36,430 nt of DNA from Candidatus Saccharimonadota bacterium (GTDB taxonomy: Bacteria > Patescibacteriota > Saccharimonadia > Saccharimonadales > UBA10212). The translations under genes were made by a program, and so were the position numbers. Location: assembly GCA_025934715.1 (NCBI GenBank), contig JAICWR010000004.1:1-36430 (forward strand). Reading direction: 5' to 3'. Position 1 is the stretch's first letter. Every line of letters starts with the position of its first letter. Positions 9,559 through 33,753 of the stretch are shown here, in pieces. The notes under the pieces were generated by a model, which made no database searches, had not been told where the DNA came from, and saw only the letters and a program-made list of their open reading frames with translations.

Positions 9559-11421
9559 ATGACGGCTGAGGAAATTCGAAAAAAATATCTAGAGTTTTTT
9601 GAAAAGAAAGGGCACAAGGCTATCCCACGGGCGCTACTGGTGCCGCAGGACGACCCAACGACCCTTTTCACTGGCAGCGGCATGCAGCCGCTGATCCCTT
9701 ATTTGCTTGGACAAGCGCACCCTGAGGGCGCCCGTCTGGTCGACAGCCAAACCTGCTTTAGGGCCGAGGACATGGACGAGGTCGGCGACAACCGCCACAC
9801 CACTTTTTTTGAGATGCTCGGCAACTGGAGCCTGGGCGATTACTTCAAACAAGACCAGCTGACATGGTTCTGGCAGTTTTTGGCTGAAGAACTAAAGCTG
9901 CCCAAAGACAAACTCTGGGTAAGCTGTTTTGAAGGCGACGAGAAAGCAGGCGTGCCAAAAGACATCGAATCGGCGGATATCTGGAAGAGCCTGGGAGTGC
10001 CGGAAGAGCGCATCGTTTTTTACGGCGCTGAGCATAACTGGTGGAGCCGTGAAGGCCTGCCCGAGCATATGCGCGACGGCGAACCAGGCGGCCCCGACAG
10101 CGAAGTCTATTATGAATTTACTCAAGTCGAACACGACAAAAAATACGGCGAAAAGTGCCACCCCGCTTGCGAGTGCGGCCGGTTTTTGGAAATCGGCAAC
10201 AGCGTGTTTATGACTTACCGAAAAATCGGTGGTAAGTTCGAGGATTTGCCTAAACCGAACGTAGACTTTGGTGGCGGCCTGGAGCGCATTGCTGCGGCGG
10301 TTAATAATGACCCGGATATCTTCAAAATCAGCCTTATAAAACCAATGGTTGACGAGTTGGAAAAATTATCCGGCAAGGGCTATAGCCAGCACCAGACCAG
10401 CATGCGGGTCATAGCGGACCACCTGCGGGCGGCGACCTGGCTGGCGGTCGACGGAGTGGCGCCAAGCAACAAACAGCAGGGCTATGTGATGCGCCGGCTG
10501 CTTAGGCGGGCGATAAGATATGCCTTTGATCTTGGCATAGAGCAGGATTTATGCGACAAAATCGCGCCTACGGTGATAAATCTGTATAAAAATGACTTCC
10601 CCGAGATTGCCGAACGCGAAAAAGAAGTACTAGAAATATTTGGCCGCGAAGAGCGGATATTCCGTCAAACTTTGCGGAGAGGGCTTCAGGAGTTTGATAA
10701 GATCTTGGGAGTGAAATCCACAGGGCTTTTCGATACGGGCACAACACCGCCTCCCATGCGATCCATAATGTATGGTCCTGATATCTTCAAACTTTACGAT
10801 ACATATGGTTTTCCGGTAGAGCTTACTGTTGAAGAAGCGCATAGACGAGGAATAGAACTTGCTGGCGGTTGGCGCAGTGAGTTTGATCACTTAATGTTCG
10901 AGCAACGGCAGCGCAGCCAGACGGCCAGTGCCGGGATGTTCAAAGGCGGCTTGGCTGACCATTCACCAGAGGTAGTTAAGCTGCACACCACAACCCATTT
11001 AATGTACCAGGCGCTGAAAAATGTACTTGGAGATCACGCCGTACAGCGCGGCAGTAACATCACGGCCGAGCGGACCAGATTTGACTTTAGCCATCCTGAA
11101 AAAGTCACCCGCGAACAGCTGGACGAAGTCGAGAAAATCGTGAATCAAAAAATCGACGAAGATTTGCCGGTCACTTGGAAAGAAGAGAAAACCGACGAAG
11201 CCTTTAAAAAAGGCGCCAGCGGCGCCTTTGGCGATAAATACGGTGCCACCGTTAAAGTCTATACTATCGGCGAGCCGGGACACCCCTTCAGCCGCGAAAT
11301 CTGCGGCGGCCCGCACGTGGAGAATACTGGAGCTATCGGTGAAGGCGGTAAAAAGTTCAAAATCACCAAAGAAGAAGCCAGCTCCGCCGGCGTCCGCCGC
11401 ATCAAAGCTGTCCTCGAATAA
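9559..11421 (+). CDS. alaS: Alanine--tRNA ligase (short form, about 620 aa)
   Basis: DPTTLFTGSGMQP, HTTFFEMLGNWSLGDYFK, IADHLRA, LYDTYGFP, editing motifs HTTTH and EICGGPH, ending GVRRIKA. Start placed at ATG 9559 (MTAEEIRKKYLEFF), 7 nt after TGTTACAAT. Confidence 0.96.
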   Translation: MTAEEIRKKYLEFFEKKGHKAIPRALLVPQDDPTTLFTGSGMQPLIPYLLGQAHPEGARLVDSQTCFRAEDMDEVGDNRHTTFFEMLGNWSLGDYFKQDQLTWFWQFLAEELKLPKDKLWVSCFEGDEKAGVPKDIESADIWKSLGVPEERIVFYGAEHNWWSREGLPEHMRDGEPGGPDSEVYYEFTQVEHDKKYGEKCHPACECGRFLEIGNSVFMTYRKIGGKFEDLPKPNVDFGGGLERIAAAVNNDPDIFKISLIKPMVDELEKLSGKGYSQHQTSMRVIADHLRAATWLAVDGVAPSNKQQGYVMRRLLRRAIRYAFDLGIEQDLCDKIAPTVINLYKNDFPEIAEREKEVLEIFGREERIFRQTLRRGLQEFDKILGVKSTGLFDTGTTPPPMRSIMYGPDIFKLYDTYGFPVELTVEEAHRRGIELAGGWRSEFDHLMFEQRQRSQTASAGMFKGGLADHSPEVVKLHTTTHLMYQALKNVLGDHAVQRGSNITAERTRFDFSHPEKVTREQLDEVEKIVNQKIDEDLPVTWKEEKTDEAFKKGASGAFGDKYGATVKVYTIGEPGHPFSREICGGPHVENTGAIGEGGKKFKITKEEASSAGVRRIKAVLE

Positions 11422-30258: not shown

Positions 30259-30286
30259 AAAAAACTCCCTTTCAGGGGAGTTTTTT
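30259..30286. terminator. Bidirectional intrinsic terminator between the substrate-binding protein gene and the tRNA-Cys/Leu pair
   Basis: AAAAAACTCCC-tttcag-GGGAGTTTTTT between convergent genes. Confidence 0.8.
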
Positions 30287-30370
30287 GGTGGGAAGAGAGG
30301 GACTCGAACCCTCAAGCCTTGTGGCAACGGATTTTAAGTCCGCAGCGTATACCAGTTCCGCCATCTTCCC
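30286..30370 (-). tRNA. tRNA-Leu (anticodon TAA)
   Basis: Reverse complement is GGGAAGATGGCGGAACTGGTATACGCTGCGGACTTAAAATCCGTTGCCACAAGGCTTGAGGGTTCGAGTCCCTCTCTTCCCACCA: cloverleaf with long variable arm and encoded CCA. Confidence 0.96.
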
Positions 30371-30374
30371 GGGC

Positions 30375-30448
30375 TGGAGGCGCGTACGGGATTCGCACCC
30401 GTGTGAAAGGTTTTGCAGACCTACGCCTAACTCCTCGGCCAACGCGCC
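30375..30448 (-). tRNA. tRNA-Cys (anticodon GCA)
   Basis: Reverse complement is GGCGCGTTGGCCGAGGAGTTAGGCGTAGGTCTGCAAAACCTTTCACACGGGTGCGAATCCCGTACGCGCCTCCA; U73 discriminator and CCA. Confidence 0.93.
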
Positions 30449-31441: not shown

Positions 31442-32050
31442 TCAGTCAAACGAACCAGTCTTAACCTCGCCAGCCCTTTCGTAGTTAGCCAAAATAATTC
31501 CGCTGTGCAACGCTTTAGAATCCTGTAGCTTATAAGCGGCTGGGATTGTCCCAGTACCGAATAAGCGTTTTCCGTCCCCAAGTGTAATCGGGTAAATTCT
31601 TAATCGCAGCTCATCAATCAAGTCGTTTTTTAGCAGCGTCTGTATGAGCACACTACTGCCCCACACATGGAACACCGGGCCATCTTCTTTTTTTAAAGCC
31701 TTTAGCTTGGCTACTACATCACCGCTGATAAGCACTGACTCTTTCCAGCTAAGGCCCGGGTCTTTACTGGCCACAACGTATTTTGTGCATCTATTAAACG
31801 GGTCGCCCACCATGCCTTTTTGCTTGGGCCAATAAGTTTTCCAAAGATCATAAGTTTTTCTGCCCAACAGCAAGTCAAAAGGCACGCTTAGTTCTTTTTG
31901 AAGAATTGGCTCCATAGCTTTATCGGAAAACGGCGCGGTCCAGCCGCCATATTTAAAACCTTCCGCCTCATCTTCCTTTGATCCACCCGGAGCCTGCATG
32001 ACACCGTCCAGGGTAAGCATCATAAAAACAACTATCTTCCTCATACCCAT
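31442..32050 (-). CDS. Dihydrofolate reductase / RibD C-terminal family protein
   Basis: TLDGVMQAPGG, LLLGRKTY, WGS..LIQTLL..DLIDE, P.TLG.GKRLF. Confidence 0.9.
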   Translation of the reverse strand: MGMRKIVVFMMLTLDGVMQAPGGSKEDEAEGFKYGGWTAPFSDKAMEPILQKELSVPFDLLLGRKTYDLWKTYWPKQKGMVGDPFNRCTKYVVASKDPGLSWKESVLISGDVVAKLKALKKEDGPVFHVWGSSVLIQTLLKNDLIDELRLRIYPITLGDGKRLFGTGTIPAAYKLQDSKALHSGIILANYERAGEVKTGSFD

Positions 32051-32132
32051 ATCTTAGCAAAAAACACTAAGTTTCGTCAGACCTGTGACACTTTAATTTA
32101 CCTAGTATTTTTGATAGAATTTACCCTGTTAT

Positions 32133-32209
32133 GCGGGTGTAGCTCAGTTGTTTAGAGCGCTTCCTTGCCAAGGAAGAGGCCGTGAGTTAGAGTCTCATCA
32201 CCCGCACCA
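32133..32209 (+). tRNA. tRNA-Gly (anticodon GCC)
   Basis: GCGGGTGTAGCTCAGTTGTTTAGAGCGCTTCCTTGCCAAGGAAGAGGCCGTGAGTTAGAGTCTCATCACCCGCACCA. All four stems pair; TGATAGAAT -10 element upstream. Confidence 0.93.
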
Positions 32210-32570
32210 TCCTTCGACAGGCTCAGGATTGGTGACTATGTATTATCTGTATATTCTTGAATGTGACGATGCCTTTTTATACGTTGGCATTACTAAAGAC
32301 GTGGAGAGAAGGCTCGCTCAGCATCGGAGCAAATATTCACCTCACACAAAGCGTTATAAGAAATTAGAATTAGTCCATACTGAAGAATTTGTGACCAGGG
32401 CAGATGCTGAGCATAGAGAAAGACAGCTCAAGGGGTGGTCAAGGGCCAAGAAAAAGGCATTAATCGAGCAAGATTTTGAAAAACTTACGTTTCTAAGCCA
32501 ATCTAGCCTGTCGAAGGATGGTGCCAAGAGTTTACCCTGAGCTTGCCGAAGGGTCTCATCACCCGCACCA
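32192..32570 (+). mobile_element. Mini-island at tRNA-Gly: GIY-YIG gene between 18-bp direct repeats and REP-like inverted repeats
   Basis: GTCTCATCACCCGCACCA at 32192-32209 and 32553-32570. Perfect 20-bp inverted repeat at 32204-32223 / 32505-32524. Further 15/17 inverted copy at 32536-32552. Confidence 0.75.
32238..32540 (+). CDS. Small GIY-YIG nuclease (UPF0213/YhbQ-like)
   Basis: MYYLYILECDDAFLYVGITKDVERRLAQH...AEHRERQLKGWSRAKK. Start moved to ATG 32238 because the track start lies inside the tRNA. Confidence 0.9.
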   Translation: MYYLYILECDDAFLYVGITKDVERRLAQHRSKYSPHTKRYKKLELVHTEEFVTRADAEHRERQLKGWSRAKKKALIEQDFEKLTFLSQSSLSKDGAKSLP

Positions 32571-32655
32571 ATGAATCTTTGAATATCAGCACCAAATGCG
32601 GCTGGGGCAACCACACACGTCTTTTTTACCGGCTTGGTGTATGATTTAGGTACAC

Positions 32656-33753
32656 ATGCGTATCGGCATATTATCCGCTCAACTTAGCGAGCTGGATAAC
32701 AGGGAAAACAGGCGCTTTGCAAGAGAAATCCTGCTACTGGGCCACCGCGCCGTAATTATAAACTATCGTGATGCCGTTATCGTAACGACCAAAAATAAAC
32801 AAGTGCTGTATCAACCCAACCGGCAGGGAATATTAAGGCCGGTCAGGGTCCATGCCGTAATCCCACGTATTAACGAAGCTGACTCCAAGTCAATAAATCT
32901 CGGCACCTTGGCCCTTGAGTGTTTGATAGCCGGCGGAGCCTACTCAACGGCTTCGCCATCTGCAATCAGACTATCCAAAGATAAAACGCACAGCCTGCTT
33001 GCTATGTCTAGCGCCGGGATCACTACCCCAAGGACGGCCGCTATCTCCACCTCCGCAGACAAGGTGCTTGACCTTGAAAAAGTCCTTAAGGTGGTTGAAC
33101 CAACCGCTAACAGAAGATTAATCATCAAAACCAATATAGGCACAGGCGGCAAAGGTGTGATGCCGGCTAACTCCAGAGGCGAAGCCCGGGCGATAGTGGA
33201 GGGTTTTTTATCAAACTCAATACCGATACTTTTGCAACAGTTTATTGAGCCGACTAAAAAAGATCACTATATAGACTTTAGGATTTACGTAATAAATGGA
33301 AAATACGCCGGCACTATGATTCGCGAAGCTACTCGTCCCGGGGAAGTTCGGGCAAACATAGACCTGGGAGGCAAAGCAATCTTCTACCAGCCGACTCAAG
33401 AAGAAATAAAAATGGCCGAGGCGGCATGCGAAGCGGTGGGCTTAACGATTGCCGGCGTCGATATCATACCTTCTGGCAATAAGCGTTTTGTGATCGAAGT
33501 GAATAGCAGCCCTGGGTTCGCTTTTGAGGAAATCACCGGGACGAATTTAGTTAAAAGAATGGCGCGCCAGGCAATCGCTGGCGTTGATTTGGATCAGGTG
33601 TCAGCGCCAACCAAGATAAAAGAGGTGCTTAATACACCTGTGCCAATTCCTACCCCTAAAGTTATCAGAAAGGCCCGGCCCAAGATCAGCAAAGCCCTTT
33701 CGCCCGAGGCGATTAAACAAATCAGGATCAAAGTCAAATCAATCTCCGAGTAA
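32656..33753 (+). CDS. RimK-family ATP-grasp ligase
   Basis: AVIPRI, KDK, IIKTNIGTGGKGV, LLQQFI, DFR, RANIDLGG, GVD, EVNSSPG; basic C-terminal extension. Confidence 0.88.
   Translation: MRIGILSAQLSELDNRENRRFAREILLLGHRAVIINYRDAVIVTTKNKQVLYQPNRQGILRPVRVHAVIPRINEADSKSINLGTLALECLIAGGAYSTASPSAIRLSKDKTHSLLAMSSAGITTPRTAAISTSADKVLDLEKVLKVVEPTANRRLIIKTNIGTGGKGVMPANSRGEARAIVEGFLSNSIPILLQQFIEPTKKDHYIDFRIYVINGKYAGTMIREATRPGEVRANIDLGGKAIFYQPTQEEIKMAEAACEAVGLTIAGVDIIPSGNKRFVIEVNSSPGFAFEEITGTNLVKRMARQAIAGVDLDQVSAPTKIKEVLNTPVPIPTPKVIRKARPKISKALSPEAIKQIRIKVKSISE

What the first reader, a model, noticed from the sequence alone, without database searches (positions are those of the whole stretch)
32192..32570. 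361-bp integrase-free GIY-YIG mini-element at the tRNA-Gly 3' end, framed by direct and inverted repeats
Seen in sequence: the last 18 nt of tRNA-Gly (GTCTCATCACCCGCACCA, 32192-32209) recur exactly at 32553-32570, like attL/attR. The only gene between them is a 100-aa GIY-YIG nuclease, with no integrase or transposase. A perfect 20-bp inverted repeat (GCACCATCCTTCGACAGGCT 32204-32223 / AGCCTGTCGAAGGATGGTGC 32505-32524) includes the tRNA's own GCACCA end. A third copy (CCTGAGCTTGCCGAAGG, 32536-32552, 15/17 match) carries the nuclease stop codon and abuts the duplicated tRNA end. Established: tRNA 3' ends are classic integration sites, normally for tyrosine integrases. From recall, CCTTCGACAGGCTCAGG-type REP-like repeats occur beside small GIY-YIG genes. 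Inference: a minimal selfish element in which the GIY-YIG protein acts on its flanking repeats and targets tRNA ends.
Basis: partly seen in the sequence, partly recalled or inferred. Interest (0 to 1): 0.82.

Follow-up and report, generated by a model that had tools for sequence, protein, structure and literature searches.

The report
GIY-YIG mini-cassette embedded at tRNA-Gly
A 343-base insert holding only a tiny nuclease gene sits directly behind a glycine tRNA gene and ends with a copy of that tRNA's tail; the same layout recurs at many tRNA genes across this group of very small bacteria, so it looks like a little-described kind of selfish DNA.

Summary
tRNA-Gly(GCC) lies at 32133-32209. 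Its last 18 nt recur exactly at 32553-32570. A perfect 20-bp inverted repeat, a 15/17 inverted copy of a 17-mer and an intact 100-aa GIY-YIG ORF lie between them.

It is not a one-off. In 61 related genomes, probably Saccharimonadales, 24 of 78 GIY-YIG homologues lie within 300 bp of a tRNA. All 24 are co-oriented with it, against about 6% adjacency expected by chance. In 13 of them the far side of the gene carries a 10-21-nt copy of that tRNA's 5' or 3' terminus. In a Patescibacteria-wide sample, 67 of 89 loci examined are tRNA-adjacent.

Two same-genus filled/empty site pairs show precise insertion. One is at the same tRNA-Gly 3' end. No integrase lies in the element.

Best reading: a minimal, integrase-free GIY-YIG cassette (Slx1/UPF0213 type) riding in a tRNA transcription unit. 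Its mobility is shown for relatives, not for this copy, and the nuclease mechanism is inferred.

The 17-mer is a repeat found in many phyla and rarely linked to GIY-YIG (1 of 80 loci). The idea that the protein acts on its repeats remains untested.

The parts
32133..32209 (+). Intact tRNA-Gly(GCC) with encoded CCA. It is the host gene of the cassette.
   Evidence: ARAGORN. Rfam tRNA model, 70.4 bits, E 3.9e-15.
32192..32209 (+). Direct repeat, copy 1: the last 18 nt of the tRNA, from the T-loop to CCA. It is 21 nt with one mismatch if counted from 32189.
   Evidence: (D1).
32210..32552 (+). Cassette body, 343 bp: a 28-nt leader, the ORF and the tail. With one repeat copy the period is 361 bp.
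   Evidence: Sequence read directly. Boundaries follow from the direct repeat.
32211..32227 (+). Left terminal 17-mer, one base after the CCA.
   Evidence: (I2). The closest homologue, G025:C6, has an almost identical leader (same bases except one extra T).
32204..32223 (.). Left arm of the perfect 20-bp inverted repeat. It spans the tRNA's last 6 nt and the start of the 17-mer.
   Evidence: I1. In the RNA minimum-free-energy fold it pairs with the right arm.
32238..32540 (+). GIY-YIG nuclease gene, 100 aa plus TGA, of the small stand-alone Slx1/UPF0213 type. Its last ~12 codons are encoded by the repeats.
   Evidence: Pfam PF01541, E 3.1e-17. PDB 1zg2 and 1ywl, both 'UPF0213' proteins, at E 5e-10 and 1e-9. 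Y5, Y15, G17, R25, H29, E61 and K65 are conserved in 66-68 of 68 relatives and all are present here.
32505..32524 (.). Right arm of the perfect 20-bp inverted repeat, inside the 3' tail of the ORF.
   Evidence: I1.
32536..32552 (-). Right terminal inverted copy of the 17-mer (15/17). It contains the stop codon and abuts repeat copy 2.
   Evidence: (I2). The terminal inverted repeat was reached by 1 of 200 shuffles.
32553..32570 (+). Direct repeat, copy 2: an orphan copy of the tRNA 3' end, followed by the native flank.
   Evidence: Metagenome contigs with 0 differences bridge this junction (records 8 and 16).
31442..32050 (-). Left neighbour (context only): RibD_C-domain gene, divergent from the tRNA.
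   Evidence: Pfam PF01872, E 4.6e-17. The same arrangement is found in same-genus G004.
32656..33753 (+). Right neighbour (context only): RimK-like ATP-grasp gene.
   Evidence: Pfam PF08443, E 8.3e-30. Its orthologues in G002, G008 and G018 have no tRNA nearby.

Best explanation
The 361-bp unit belongs to a family of minimal, integrase-free selfish cassettes that is common in Patescibacteria. Each cassette is little more than an 80-100-aa stand-alone GIY-YIG nuclease gene (Slx1/UPF0213 type) with a short structured leader and tail. It sits co-directionally inside a tRNA transcription unit, either just behind the tRNA (as here) or just in front of it. On its far side it is bounded by a partial copy of that tRNA: the 3' terminus from the T-loop to CCA, or the 5' terminus from +1 to the D or anticodon loop. 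One tRNA copy therefore stays intact.

Shown:
- the anatomy of the unit;
- the recurrence of the layout and its strict co-orientation with the tRNA;
- that the duplicates are anchored on the tRNA termini;
- precise presence/absence between congeneric genomes;
- conservation of the catalytic residues.

Inferred:
- the cassette has no promoter of its own and is read through from the tRNA promoter;
- the nuclease makes a break at or in the tRNA gene, and repair copies the cassette in, in a homing-like way. The partial tRNA duplication would come either from staggered cuts at a loop and at the gene end, or from microhomology-mediated repair of the kind reported for phage SegB;
- because the protein has no DNA-binding domain, target choice is more likely by DNA structure (hairpins, tRNA-gene cloverleaf) than by a long sequence.
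For: Anatomy in the window.

Relatives:
- 33 of 61 genomes hold 78 homologous places, up to 7 per ~0.6-Mb genome.
- 24 of 78 lie within 300 bp of a tRNA, and 19 within 100 bp. All 24 are on the tRNA's strand. Expected adjacency is about 6%, giving a binomial P of 1.4e-11.
- 13 of the 24 have a copy of 10 nt or more of the tRNA terminus across the gene. The copy starts at +1 when the tRNA is downstream (10 loci) and ends at CCA when it is upstream (3 loci). One further locus has a 9-nt copy.
- Controls: 0 of 25 reversed tRNAs and 12 of 500 shuffled tRNAs reach 10 nt.
- Background in this genome: 2 of 46 tRNAs carry any end duplication.

Phylum sample:
- 148 of 201 genomes have matches, about 503 in all.
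- Of the 89 loci examined, 67 are within 300 bp of a tRNA, and 66 of those 67 are co-oriented.
- 36 of them carry terminus-anchored duplicates, up to 37 nt at the 5' end and 12-30 nt at the 3' end.

Filled/empty pairs:
- G012 has tRNA-Gly(GCC), then a 363-bp GIY cassette, then a 12-nt copy, then the flank. Same-genus G035 has tRNA-Gly joined directly to the orthologous flank.
- G035 has a cassette between the tRNA-Met promoter and +1. G012 has the promoter 11 nt from the tRNA, and the upstream gene is 77% identical.

Other evidence:
- One cassette lineage sits at two different tRNAs, Asp in G007 and Gly in G012. Each copy is flanked by the local tRNA's 3' end.
- The window's cassette and G012's hit the same tRNA-Gly site but have 18-nt and 12-nt duplicates and 37% protein identity, so they are independent events.
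- Catalytic residues are conserved.
- The closest homologue (G025:C6, 54% identity) has the same leader except for one extra T, but an in-frame TGA. That fits the decay expected of a selfish gene.
- No recombinase lies in the unit.
- Precedents in print: SegB cuts at the 3' end of tRNA genes via the T-psi-C motif (PMC2330249, abstract and passages read). SegB associates with tRNA genes and drives microhomology-based segmental duplication (PMC13096335, abstract and sections 10 and 12 read). GIY-YIG ORFs occur in non-intron insertions of CPR rRNA genes (PMC11270868, passages read).
Against: - No empty allele, circle or junction was found for this copy. Synteny with rimK is not conserved. The one syntenic same-genus contig ends exactly at the tRNA. 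The metagenome contigs were short and showed only the occupied right junction.
- The window protein's three closest relatives are not next to a tRNA: 1261 bp, 987 bp and none within 1.5 kb.
- Homologues outside the phylum are almost never tRNA-linked: 0 of 20 and 1 of 34 loci.
- Terminal inverted repeats stand out in only 4 of 9 cassettes of the 3' type. Duplicate lengths vary widely, which does not fit a fixed staggered cut.
- An intact tRNA copy remains beside the nuclease gene, so how self-cleavage is avoided is unexplained.
- tRNA-end duplications without any ORF exist, with no GIY remnant. Such duplications can therefore arise or persist without the gene.
- Related genomes are not independent samples.
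- The phylum profile was built from tRNA-adjacent members, and only 89 of the 148 listed non-own rows were examined, out of about 503 matches. The 75% figure may therefore be inflated.
- No nuclease activity, transcript or movement has been observed.
Confidence: 0.6

Rival explanations
1. The GIY-YIG gene is a resident nuclease that drives or tolerates local 'accordion' duplication of tRNA-plus-nuclease segments, as phage SegB does. The partial tRNA copies would be collapsed remains of tandem amplification. The arrangement may serve the host, for example through tRNA dosage, rather than spread as a parasite.
For: SegB promotes segmental amplification through microhomology between a tRNA 5' region and its own 3' end (PMC13096335, section 12 read). 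Some loci carry nearly whole second tRNA copies, for example 55 nt in L359, positions 17-72 in L358, and tandem tRNA-Glu copies in G017. Duplicate lengths form a continuum from 9 to 55 nt.
Against: The filled/empty pairs show gain or loss of the gene together with the duplicate, not merely a copy-number change. Up to 14 paralogues per genome sit at different tRNAs. There is no evidence that any tRNA is present in more than one intact copy at these loci, apart from G017.
Confidence: 0.15
2. The gene is a host gene functionally linked to tRNAs, for example in processing, repair or quality control of tRNA genes or transcripts, and is co-transcribed with them. The duplications would be by-products of slippage at tRNA genes, and the element would not be mobile.
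For: Co-orientation is strict, 24 of 24 and 66 of 67. The family is very common in the phylum, in 148 of 201 genomes. A fusion of a Slx1-like domain to a TrmH tRNA methyltransferase has been taken as a hint of an RNA role (PMC1564403, passage read). Some clades have short branches and conserved positions.
Against: The distribution is patchy and the copy number ranges from 0 to 14. Different tRNAs are occupied in different genomes. Reciprocal filled and empty sites occur within one genus. A nonsense-mutated copy exists. Only 2 of 46 tRNAs in this genome show end duplications, and 1 of those 2 is the GIY site.
Confidence: 0.12
3. The system is like REP/RAYT. The GIY-YIG protein would mobilise the dispersed 17-mer repeats, and its own gene is flanked by them in the way RAYT genes are flanked by REPs. 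The tRNA-end copy would be incidental.
For: The gene is flanked by inverted copies of the 17-mer. The 17-mer, at 2 mismatches or fewer, has 5 copies in this genome and 14 in G025, which holds the closest homologue. Across the 61 genomes the reversed-pattern control gives 1 hit in total. 9 of 10 genomes with two or more copies have a GIY-YIG gene, against 21 of 44 genomes with none. Leaders resembling the motif precede several homologues.
Against: Only 1 of 80 loci from many phyla that carry the exact 17-mer has a GIY-YIG gene within the stretch held. 44 of the 61 relatives have no copy, and 21 of those still have GIY-YIG genes. The tRNA-terminus duplication recurs in cassettes that lack this motif. 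REP sequences are lineage-specific, whereas this motif is exact across phyla.
Confidence: 0.08
4. The unit is a remnant of a larger island that integrated at the tRNA 3' end through a tyrosine integrase and was then deleted down to one gene between attL and attR, as in a cis-mobilisable element.
For: Direct repeats made of a tRNA 3' end are the classic signature of such integration (established knowledge). Integrase-free inserts bounded by tRNA 3'-end copies exist in this genome and in relatives.
Against: The unit holds no integrase, and the genome shows only one tyrosine recombinase and no serine recombinase. The same single-gene layout recurs at dozens of tRNAs. Most cases are on the 5' side with 5' duplications, which integrase islands do not make. 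The filled/empty pair differs by exactly the cassette.
Confidence: 0.03

Closest known systems
Phage T4/T6 SegB, a free-standing GIY-YIG homing endonuclease in the tRNA gene cluster (PMC2330249; PMC13096335)
   Same: It is a GIY-YIG nuclease gene lying among tRNA genes. SegB cuts at the 3' end of tRNA genes, recognising the T-psi-C stem-loop motif. It is statistically associated with tRNA genes in phage genomes, and it can generate segmental duplications through microhomology with a tRNA 5' region.
   Different: SegB recognises a 27-bp site. That it is a longer, two-domain protein is recalled, not tested here. The window protein is 100 aa with only the catalytic domain and gives only weak PHROG matches, E 3e-4. 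SegB is in phages, whereas these cassettes are in cellular genomes. They are flanked by partial copies of the adjacent tRNA, and they occur at either end of the tRNA.
GIY-YIG-encoding insertion sequences in rRNA genes of CPR bacteria (PMC11270868)
   Same: They occur in the same phylum. They carry small GIY-YIG ORFs inside insertions in structural RNA genes, the insertions are not introns, and they lie at the tops or bases of stem-loops.
   Different: That paper's main text does not mention tRNA (0 occurrences). Here the host gene is a tRNA, the insertion is accompanied by a partial duplication that keeps one gene copy intact, and the frequency is far higher. The paper calls rRNA-borne GIY-YIG sparse.
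Bacterial stand-alone Slx1-like / UPF0213 GIY-YIG proteins (PDB 1zg2, 1ywl; Slx1 cluster of PMC1564403)
   Same: The size and domain content match. The sequence matches at E 5e-10 and 1e-9 over residues 2-78. These are the minimal GIY-YIG variant without auxiliary domains.
   Different: That family is described as mainly vertically inherited and as a presumed repair protein (PMC1564403, passages read). No link to tRNA genes or to mobility is described in the passages I read.
Integrase-mediated islands at tRNA 3' ends, and their integrase-less derivatives
   Same: A direct repeat formed by the tRNA 3' end brackets the inserted DNA, and the tRNA is kept intact.
   Different: There is no recombinase. 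In the family, 5'-end duplications are the majority, and duplicate length is variable.
REP/RAYT (REPIN) systems
   Same: A single small nuclease-type gene is flanked by inverted copies of a short repeat that is also dispersed in the genome.
   Different: The enzyme is GIY-YIG, not an HUH tyrosine transposase. The repeat is shared across phyla and is mostly not linked to the gene.

Membership tests
GIY-YIG nuclease superfamily (Pfam PF01541) | A match to the domain model above its curated cut-off | tested here: met
   63.1 bits against a cut-off of 22.6, covering profile positions 1-76 of 78.
GIY-YIG nuclease superfamily (Pfam PF01541) | The two Tyr motifs, the catalytic Arg and the metal-binding Glu are present | tested here: met
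   Y5, Y15, G17, R25, H29, E61 and K65 are present and conserved in 66-68 of 68 relatives. They are invariant in A1. The assignment of roles to residues is from recall.
Stand-alone bacterial Slx1-like / UPF0213 | About 100 aa, catalytic domain only, and closest solved relatives are UPF0213 proteins | tested here: met
   100 aa. The only PDB hits are 1zg2 and 1ywl. There is no NCBIfam match.
Stand-alone bacterial Slx1-like / UPF0213 | Absence of the C-terminal Asn typical of the UvrC/homing-endonuclease lineage | not tested
   The feature is taken from PMC1564403. I made no structural alignment to UvrC or I-TevI.
Free-standing GIY-YIG homing endonuclease (Seg type) | A separate DNA-binding domain that gives a long recognition site | tested here: not met
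   Only about 22 residues lie beyond the catalytic domain, and these are encoded by the repeats.
Free-standing GIY-YIG homing endonuclease (Seg type) | The gene is present or absent at otherwise homologous loci of close relatives | tested here: inconclusive
   Met for related cassettes. No informative relative exists for the window's own locus.
Free-standing GIY-YIG homing endonuclease (Seg type) | The enzyme cleaves the allele that lacks the gene | not testable with these tools
   This needs a biochemical assay.
Integrase-type tRNA-integrating island or its remnant | A tyrosine or serine recombinase encoded in or beside the element | tested here: not met
   No such ORF lies between the repeats. 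The genome has one PF00589 hit on contig C25 and no PF00239 hit.
Integrase-type tRNA-integrating island or its remnant | Direct repeats formed by the tRNA 3' part | tested here: met
   An 18-nt exact repeat.
REP/RAYT (REPIN) | An HUH Y1 (RAYT) transposase gene | tested here: not met
   The only gene is GIY-YIG.
REP/RAYT (REPIN) | The gene is flanked by inverted REPs that are also dispersed in the genome | tested here: inconclusive
   The gene is flanked by inverted copies. There are only 5 copies at 2 mismatches or fewer in the genome. The motif is shared by many phyla and is mostly far from any GIY-YIG gene.
Classical DNA transposon / IS (TIR + TSD + transposase) | Terminal inverted repeats at both ends | tested here: inconclusive
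   Present here (15/17, reached by 1 of 200 shuffles). They stand out in only 4 of 9 cassettes of the 3' type.
Classical DNA transposon / IS (TIR + TSD + transposase) | A target-site duplication of fixed length | tested here: not met
   3' duplicates are 9-30 nt and 5' duplicates 10-37 nt.
Group I intron with a homing endonuclease ORF in a tRNA gene | A ribozyme core | tested here: not met
   No Rfam match other than the tRNA at E of 0.01 or below. Only about 40 nt of the cassette lie outside the ORF.

The most novel reading that the evidence does not exclude
Patescibacteria harbour a phylum-wide class of nuclease-only mobile elements. A minimal Slx1-like GIY-YIG protein, guided by DNA structure rather than by a long sequence, inserts its own gene into the loops or ends of tRNA genes. 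The tRNA is regenerated by partial duplication, so several of the ~45 tRNA genes in a sub-megabase genome each carry a passenger that is expressed from the tRNA promoter. This would be a mobility mechanism outside the known transposase, integrase and classical homing-endonuclease schemes.
Probability: 0.3. Interest if true: 0.85.

Novelty: new variant of a known kind. Interest (0 to 1): 0.72.

Why it matters
If this reading is right, the smallest known bacterial genomes tolerate many copies of a one-gene parasite lodged in essential tRNA genes. Here that means up to 14 copies in a genome under 1 Mb.

It would give the widespread but functionally obscure stand-alone GIY-YIG (UPF0213) proteins a concrete, testable role. 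It would extend the SegB-tRNA link from phages to cellular genomes. It would also explain pseudo-tRNA fragments, and possibly assembly breaks, beside tRNA genes in these metagenome-assembled genomes.

The 100-aa enzyme and its roughly 20-nt ends form a very small system for studying structure-guided DNA cleavage.

Tried and rejected
- **Empty site for this copy.** rimK orthologues in G002, G008 and G018 have no tRNA nearby, so the tRNA-Gly to rimK interval is not conserved. tRNA-Gly loci of 30 relatives were compared. Only same-genus G004 keeps the RibD_C/tRNA-Gly arrangement, and its contig ends on the tRNA's last base.
- **Public runs.** 20 listed runs hold part of the stretch, none more than 0.23 of the sampled words. 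Contigs of X1, X2, X4 and X5 were laid. They were short, they bridged the right junction (records 8 and 16), and they gave no joint across the cassette. This is not evidence of absence.
- **G034 versus G007 at tRNA-Asp.** This is not a clean empty site, because a different ~690-bp insert is present.
- **G035 versus G012 at tRNA-Gln.** G035 holds a different tRNA-Gln, so the pair is not usable.
- **tRNA-Leu(CAG) locus.** The alignment was inverted and unclear, and I did not follow it.
- **Idea that the 17-mer is a conserved loop between co-varying stems.** 12% of 89 instances have a flanking stem of 5 bp or more, against 7% in shuffled pairings. This is too weak to claim.
- **Rfam.** No family covers the motif or the cassette.
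- **ORF-less tRNA-end duplications as decayed GIY cassettes.** No hit had E below 1.
- **G012's tRNA-Gln as cargo of the cassette.** Rejected, because G000 has the same tRNA type.
- **Literature.** Nine full-text searches found no description of tRNA-embedded GIY-YIG cassettes in cellular genomes. Supplementary Data 2-3 of PMC13096335 and Table S3 of PMC11270868 could bear on this.
- No structure, complex or large protein-database search was run.
Full report
**1. The observation**

The window holds three tRNA genes, and tRNA-Gly(GCC) is at 32133-32209 on the + strand (Rfam 70.4 bits).

- Its last 18 nt recur exactly at 32553-32570. No shuffle of the window gives two matches, and the 714-kb genome has no third copy at up to 3 mismatches. 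With one mismatch the repeat is 21 nt, and its period is 361.
- Between the copies lies one real ORF, 32238-32540, of 100 aa. It matches Pfam GIY-YIG at E 3e-17.
- A perfect 20-bp inverted repeat (32204-32223 / 32505-32524) includes the tRNA's last six bases.
- The 17-mer at 32211-32227 has an inverted 15/17 copy at 32536-32552. That copy contains the stop codon and touches the second 18-mer.

**2. The organism and the protein**

The genome is 714 kb in 33 contigs, 52% G+C and 94.85% complete. The nearest RimK-bearing public records are titled Saccharimonadales or Saccharibacteria, so this is a member of the Patescibacteria (CPR).

The protein's only solved relatives are the two 'UPF0213' proteins 1zg2 and 1ywl, at E 5e-10 and 1e-9 over residues 2-78. 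It is therefore the minimal stand-alone GIY-YIG type that Dunin-Horkawicz et al. place in the Slx1 cluster (PMC1564403, passages read).

- Y5, Y15, G17, R25, H29, E61 and K65 are conserved in 66-68 of 68 relatives, and all are present here.
- About 22 residues follow the catalytic domain, and they are encoded by the repeats.
- There is no NCBIfam match and only weak PHROG matches.
- The genome has one tyrosine recombinase, on contig C25, and no serine recombinase.

**3. Is it a one-off? Relatives**

A six-frame search of 61 related genomes (same genus, family or order, G000 included) found 78 homologous places in 33 genomes, with up to 7 per genome. I fetched all 78 with flanks and oriented them on the GIY-YIG strand.

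- 24 of 78 have a tRNA within 300 bp and 19 within 100 bp. In all 24 the tRNA is on the same strand. The tRNA is upstream in 9 and downstream or overlapping in 15.
- From the tRNA density of G000, about 6% adjacency is expected, giving a binomial P of 1.4e-11. Related genomes are not independent, so this P overstates the case.
- I searched the far side of each gene for pieces of the adjacent tRNA. 13 of the 24 loci have a copy of 10 nt or more, always anchored on a terminus:
  - With the tRNA upstream, the copy ends at the 3' end: window 18 nt, G007 tRNA-Asp 12 nt, G012 tRNA-Gly 12 nt.
  - With the tRNA downstream, the copy starts at +1. There are ten such loci, with copies of 10-21 nt, at Ser, Glu, Met, Lys, Arg (two), Gln (two) and Asn (two).
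  - A fourteenth locus has a 9-nt 3' copy, which lies within the noise.
- Controls: reversed tRNAs reach 10 nt in 0 of 25 cases and shuffled tRNAs in 12 of 500.
- Background: only 2 of the 46 tRNAs of G000 show any end duplication. These are this one and tRNA-Ser(CGA) on contig C27, which has a 155-bp ORF-less insert.

**4. Fine structure**

In the 5' type, the upstream pseudo-copy often runs on to about position 28. It carries a G+C-rich hairpin inserted in the D-loop. The ORF starts 10-25 nt later and usually reads a few codons into the intact tRNA.

In the 3' type, the cassette begins directly after CCA. G012 (Gly) and G007 (Asp) share a ~90-nt structured leader although they sit at different tRNAs, and each is followed by the local tRNA's last 12 nt. 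Their proteins are sisters in the tree (98/70 support).

Terminal inverted repeats that abut the tRNA end on the left and the duplicate on the right stand out in 4 of 9 3'-type cassettes. These are the window, G012, L402 and L425, each reached by 2 or fewer of 200 shuffles. They do not stand out in the other five.

Proteins also cluster by target: three tRNA-Asn cassettes (100/97 support) and two tRNA-Gln cassettes. Ten of the 78 rows contained a stop and were left out of that tree.

**5. Evidence of insertion**

Two genomes of one genus give reciprocal filled and empty sites.

- In G012, tRNA-Gly(GCC) is followed by a 363-bp cassette, a 12-nt copy of the tRNA end, and then a flank. In G035 the same tRNA is followed at once by the orthologous flank.
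- In G035 a cassette lies between the tRNA-Met promoter and +1. In G012 the promoter is 11 nt from the tRNA, and the upstream gene is 77% identical.
- A third pair, G036 and G023 at tRNA-Met, agrees, but it rests on only about 25 nt of flank.

For the window's own copy I found no informative relative and no empty-site read.

The window's cassette and G012's occupy the same position behind tRNA-Gly(GCC). Their duplicates are 18 nt and 12 nt, and their proteins are 37% identical. They are therefore separate events at one kind of site.

The closest homologue of all (G025:C6, 54% identity) has a leader that is the same except for one extra T, including the four bases that in the window are the tRNA's ACCA. 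It has no tRNA beside it and carries an in-frame TGA.

**6. Breadth**

A profile of 16 tRNA-adjacent proteins (A1) was searched in 201 genomes drawn evenly from the phylum. 148 have a match at E 1e-8 or better. There are about 503 matches, and up to 14 in one genome.

I examined 89 of the 148 listed rows that are not from G000: the best 29 (one per genome), ranks 36-55, and ranks 111-150.

- 67 of the 89 have a tRNA within 300 bp, and 66 of those 67 are co-oriented.
- 36 of them carry terminus-anchored duplicates.
- 5' copies end at positions 10-13, 17-23, 27 or 31-37, that is in or beside the D and anticodon loops.
- 3' copies start at positions 58-64, in the T-loop, or at position 43.
- Some pseudo-copies are nearly whole tRNAs with a loop replaced.

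The profile came from tRNA-adjacent members, and the 353 lower-scoring matches were not sampled, so the true share may be lower.

Outside the phylum, homologues of the window protein are almost never tRNA-linked: 0 of 20 genome loci and 1 of 34 metagenome loci.

**7. The 17-mer**

At 2 mismatches or fewer it has 5 copies in G000 and 14 in G025, and it is found in 17 of the 61 relatives. The reversed control pattern gives one hit in all.

The exact 17-mer occurs in at least 119 stretches of the species-representative genomes, from many phyla. About 69 such stretches would be expected by chance for a random 17-mer in 596 Gb; that figure is my own arithmetic. The instances share extended flanks and tandem or inverted arrangements, so many are clearly not chance matches.

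Only 1 of the 80 loci returned has a GIY-YIG gene, directly downstream of the motif. No Rfam family covers it. Related 'GAGC...GTCGAA' leaders do precede several homologues.

A link between this repeat and the nuclease is therefore possible for one subfamily, but it is not general.

**8. How it most likely works**

*Shown.* These are compact cassettes with an apparently active nuclease gene. They are co-oriented with a tRNA and bounded by a terminus-anchored partial tRNA copy. They are gained or lost precisely between close relatives and are present in many copies at different tRNAs.

*Inferred.*
- The cassette is expressed by read-through from the tRNA promoter. The leader is 28 nt long. The simple scan placed no promoter-like site on the + strand between the tRNA's end and the start codon, and it found no terminator-like site anywhere in 31950-32750.
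- A nuclease-made break at the tRNA gene is repaired from a cassette-bearing copy.
- The duplication arises from staggered cuts, one in a loop and one at the gene end, or from microhomology-mediated repair.

The protein lacks any DNA-binding domain, and breakpoints cluster in loops. I therefore favour recognition of DNA structure, in line with the structure-specific activity of eukaryotic SLX1 (PMC8287910 and PMC4407285, search listings only).

*Unexplained.*
- How the intact tRNA copy escapes cutting.
- Why the 20-bp inverted repeat contains the tRNA's last six bases.
- Why pseudo-copies carry hairpins in their loops.

**9. Comparison with what is known**

The nearest precedent is phage SegB. 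It is a free-standing GIY-YIG homing endonuclease in the T4 tRNA cluster that cuts at the 3' end of tRNA genes through the T-psi-C motif (PMC2330249). It is associated with tRNA genes across phages and drives microhomology-based segmental amplification (PMC13096335).

In CPR bacteria, GIY-YIG ORFs are known in non-intron insertions of rRNA genes (PMC11270868). That paper's main text never mentions tRNA.

The present cassettes differ in four ways. They are in cellular genomes. They encode only the catalytic domain. They occur at either end of tRNA genes. They carry partial tRNA duplications.

They fail the defining tests for integrase islands, REP/RAYT systems, classical IS elements and group I introns (see the membership table). 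Nine full-text searches found no description of them. Subscription journals and supplementary files were not covered.

**10. Verdict**

Best explanation, at confidence 0.6: a tRNA-embedded, nuclease-only selfish cassette. It is a new variant of the free-standing homing-endonuclease theme and is widespread in Patescibacteria.

Interest is 0.72. The pattern is strong, easy to test and apparently undescribed, but the mechanism and the activity of this particular copy remain inferred.

Noticed in passing
window 32211-32227 and 32536-32552; loci L157-L236: The exact 17-mer occurs in at least 119 stretches of species-representative genomes from many phyla (Chloroflexota, Actinomycetota, Cyanobacteria, Bacteroidota, Alphaproteobacteria, CPR and others). 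It often appears in tandem or inverted arrays with shared extended flanks. No Rfam family covers it, and a full-text search for the string found no paper.
   Followed up: partly
G000 contig C27:9068-9328 (outside the window): tRNA-Ser(CGA) is followed by a 155-bp ORF-less insert and then an exact 18-nt copy of its 3' end. The insert has no GIY-YIG remnant. It is the only other tRNA-end duplication among the genome's 46 tRNAs.
   Followed up: partly
G000 contig C25:8962-11276 (L002): The genome's second GIY-YIG paralogue (9629-9883, minus strand, 34% identity) lies about 600 bp from tRNA-Arg(CCT) and about 870 bp from the genome's only tyrosine recombinase gene.
   Followed up: no
L074 (G010:C14:48284-48678): A tRNA-Gly(GCC) 100% identical to the window's is flanked by two orphan copies. 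A copy of its first 25 nt lies 152 bp upstream, and a copy of its last 23 nt lies 118 bp downstream. There is no GIY-YIG gene between them, and the upstream insert looks like a pseudo-tRNA with hairpins in its loops.
   Followed up: partly
L079 (G004:C21, same genus): This is the only relative with the same RibD_C/tRNA-Gly arrangement, and its contig ends exactly on the last base of the tRNA. The break could reflect a repeat or a polymorphic insert there.
   Followed up: no
L328 (G035:C21) versus L138 (G012:C3): At a syntenic locus, two same-genus genomes carry very different tRNA-Gln(TTG) genes. G012's matches the type in G000, while G035's differs over most of its length and is followed by about 330 bp of extra sequence.
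   Followed up: partly
window 32133-32600: In the RNA minimum-free-energy fold (z-score -4.7), the 20-bp inverted repeat sequesters the first tRNA 3' end, and the acceptor 5' strand pairs with the second 3'-end copy. The ORF is enclosed in a long-range helix.
   Followed up: no
window 30286-30448 and 32133-32209; L090 (G012:C4): tRNA-Leu(TAA), tRNA-Cys and tRNA-Gly(GCC) lie within 2 kb of one another both here and in G012, in different relative orientations. In both genomes the tRNA-Gly carries a GIY-YIG cassette.
   Followed up: no
L023 (G025:C6:346998-347293): The closest homologue (54% identity) has a leader almost identical to the window's (one extra T) and an inverted copy of that leader in its tail. 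It also has an in-frame TGA in the catalytic domain and no adjacent tRNA, so it is probably a decaying copy.
   Followed up: partly
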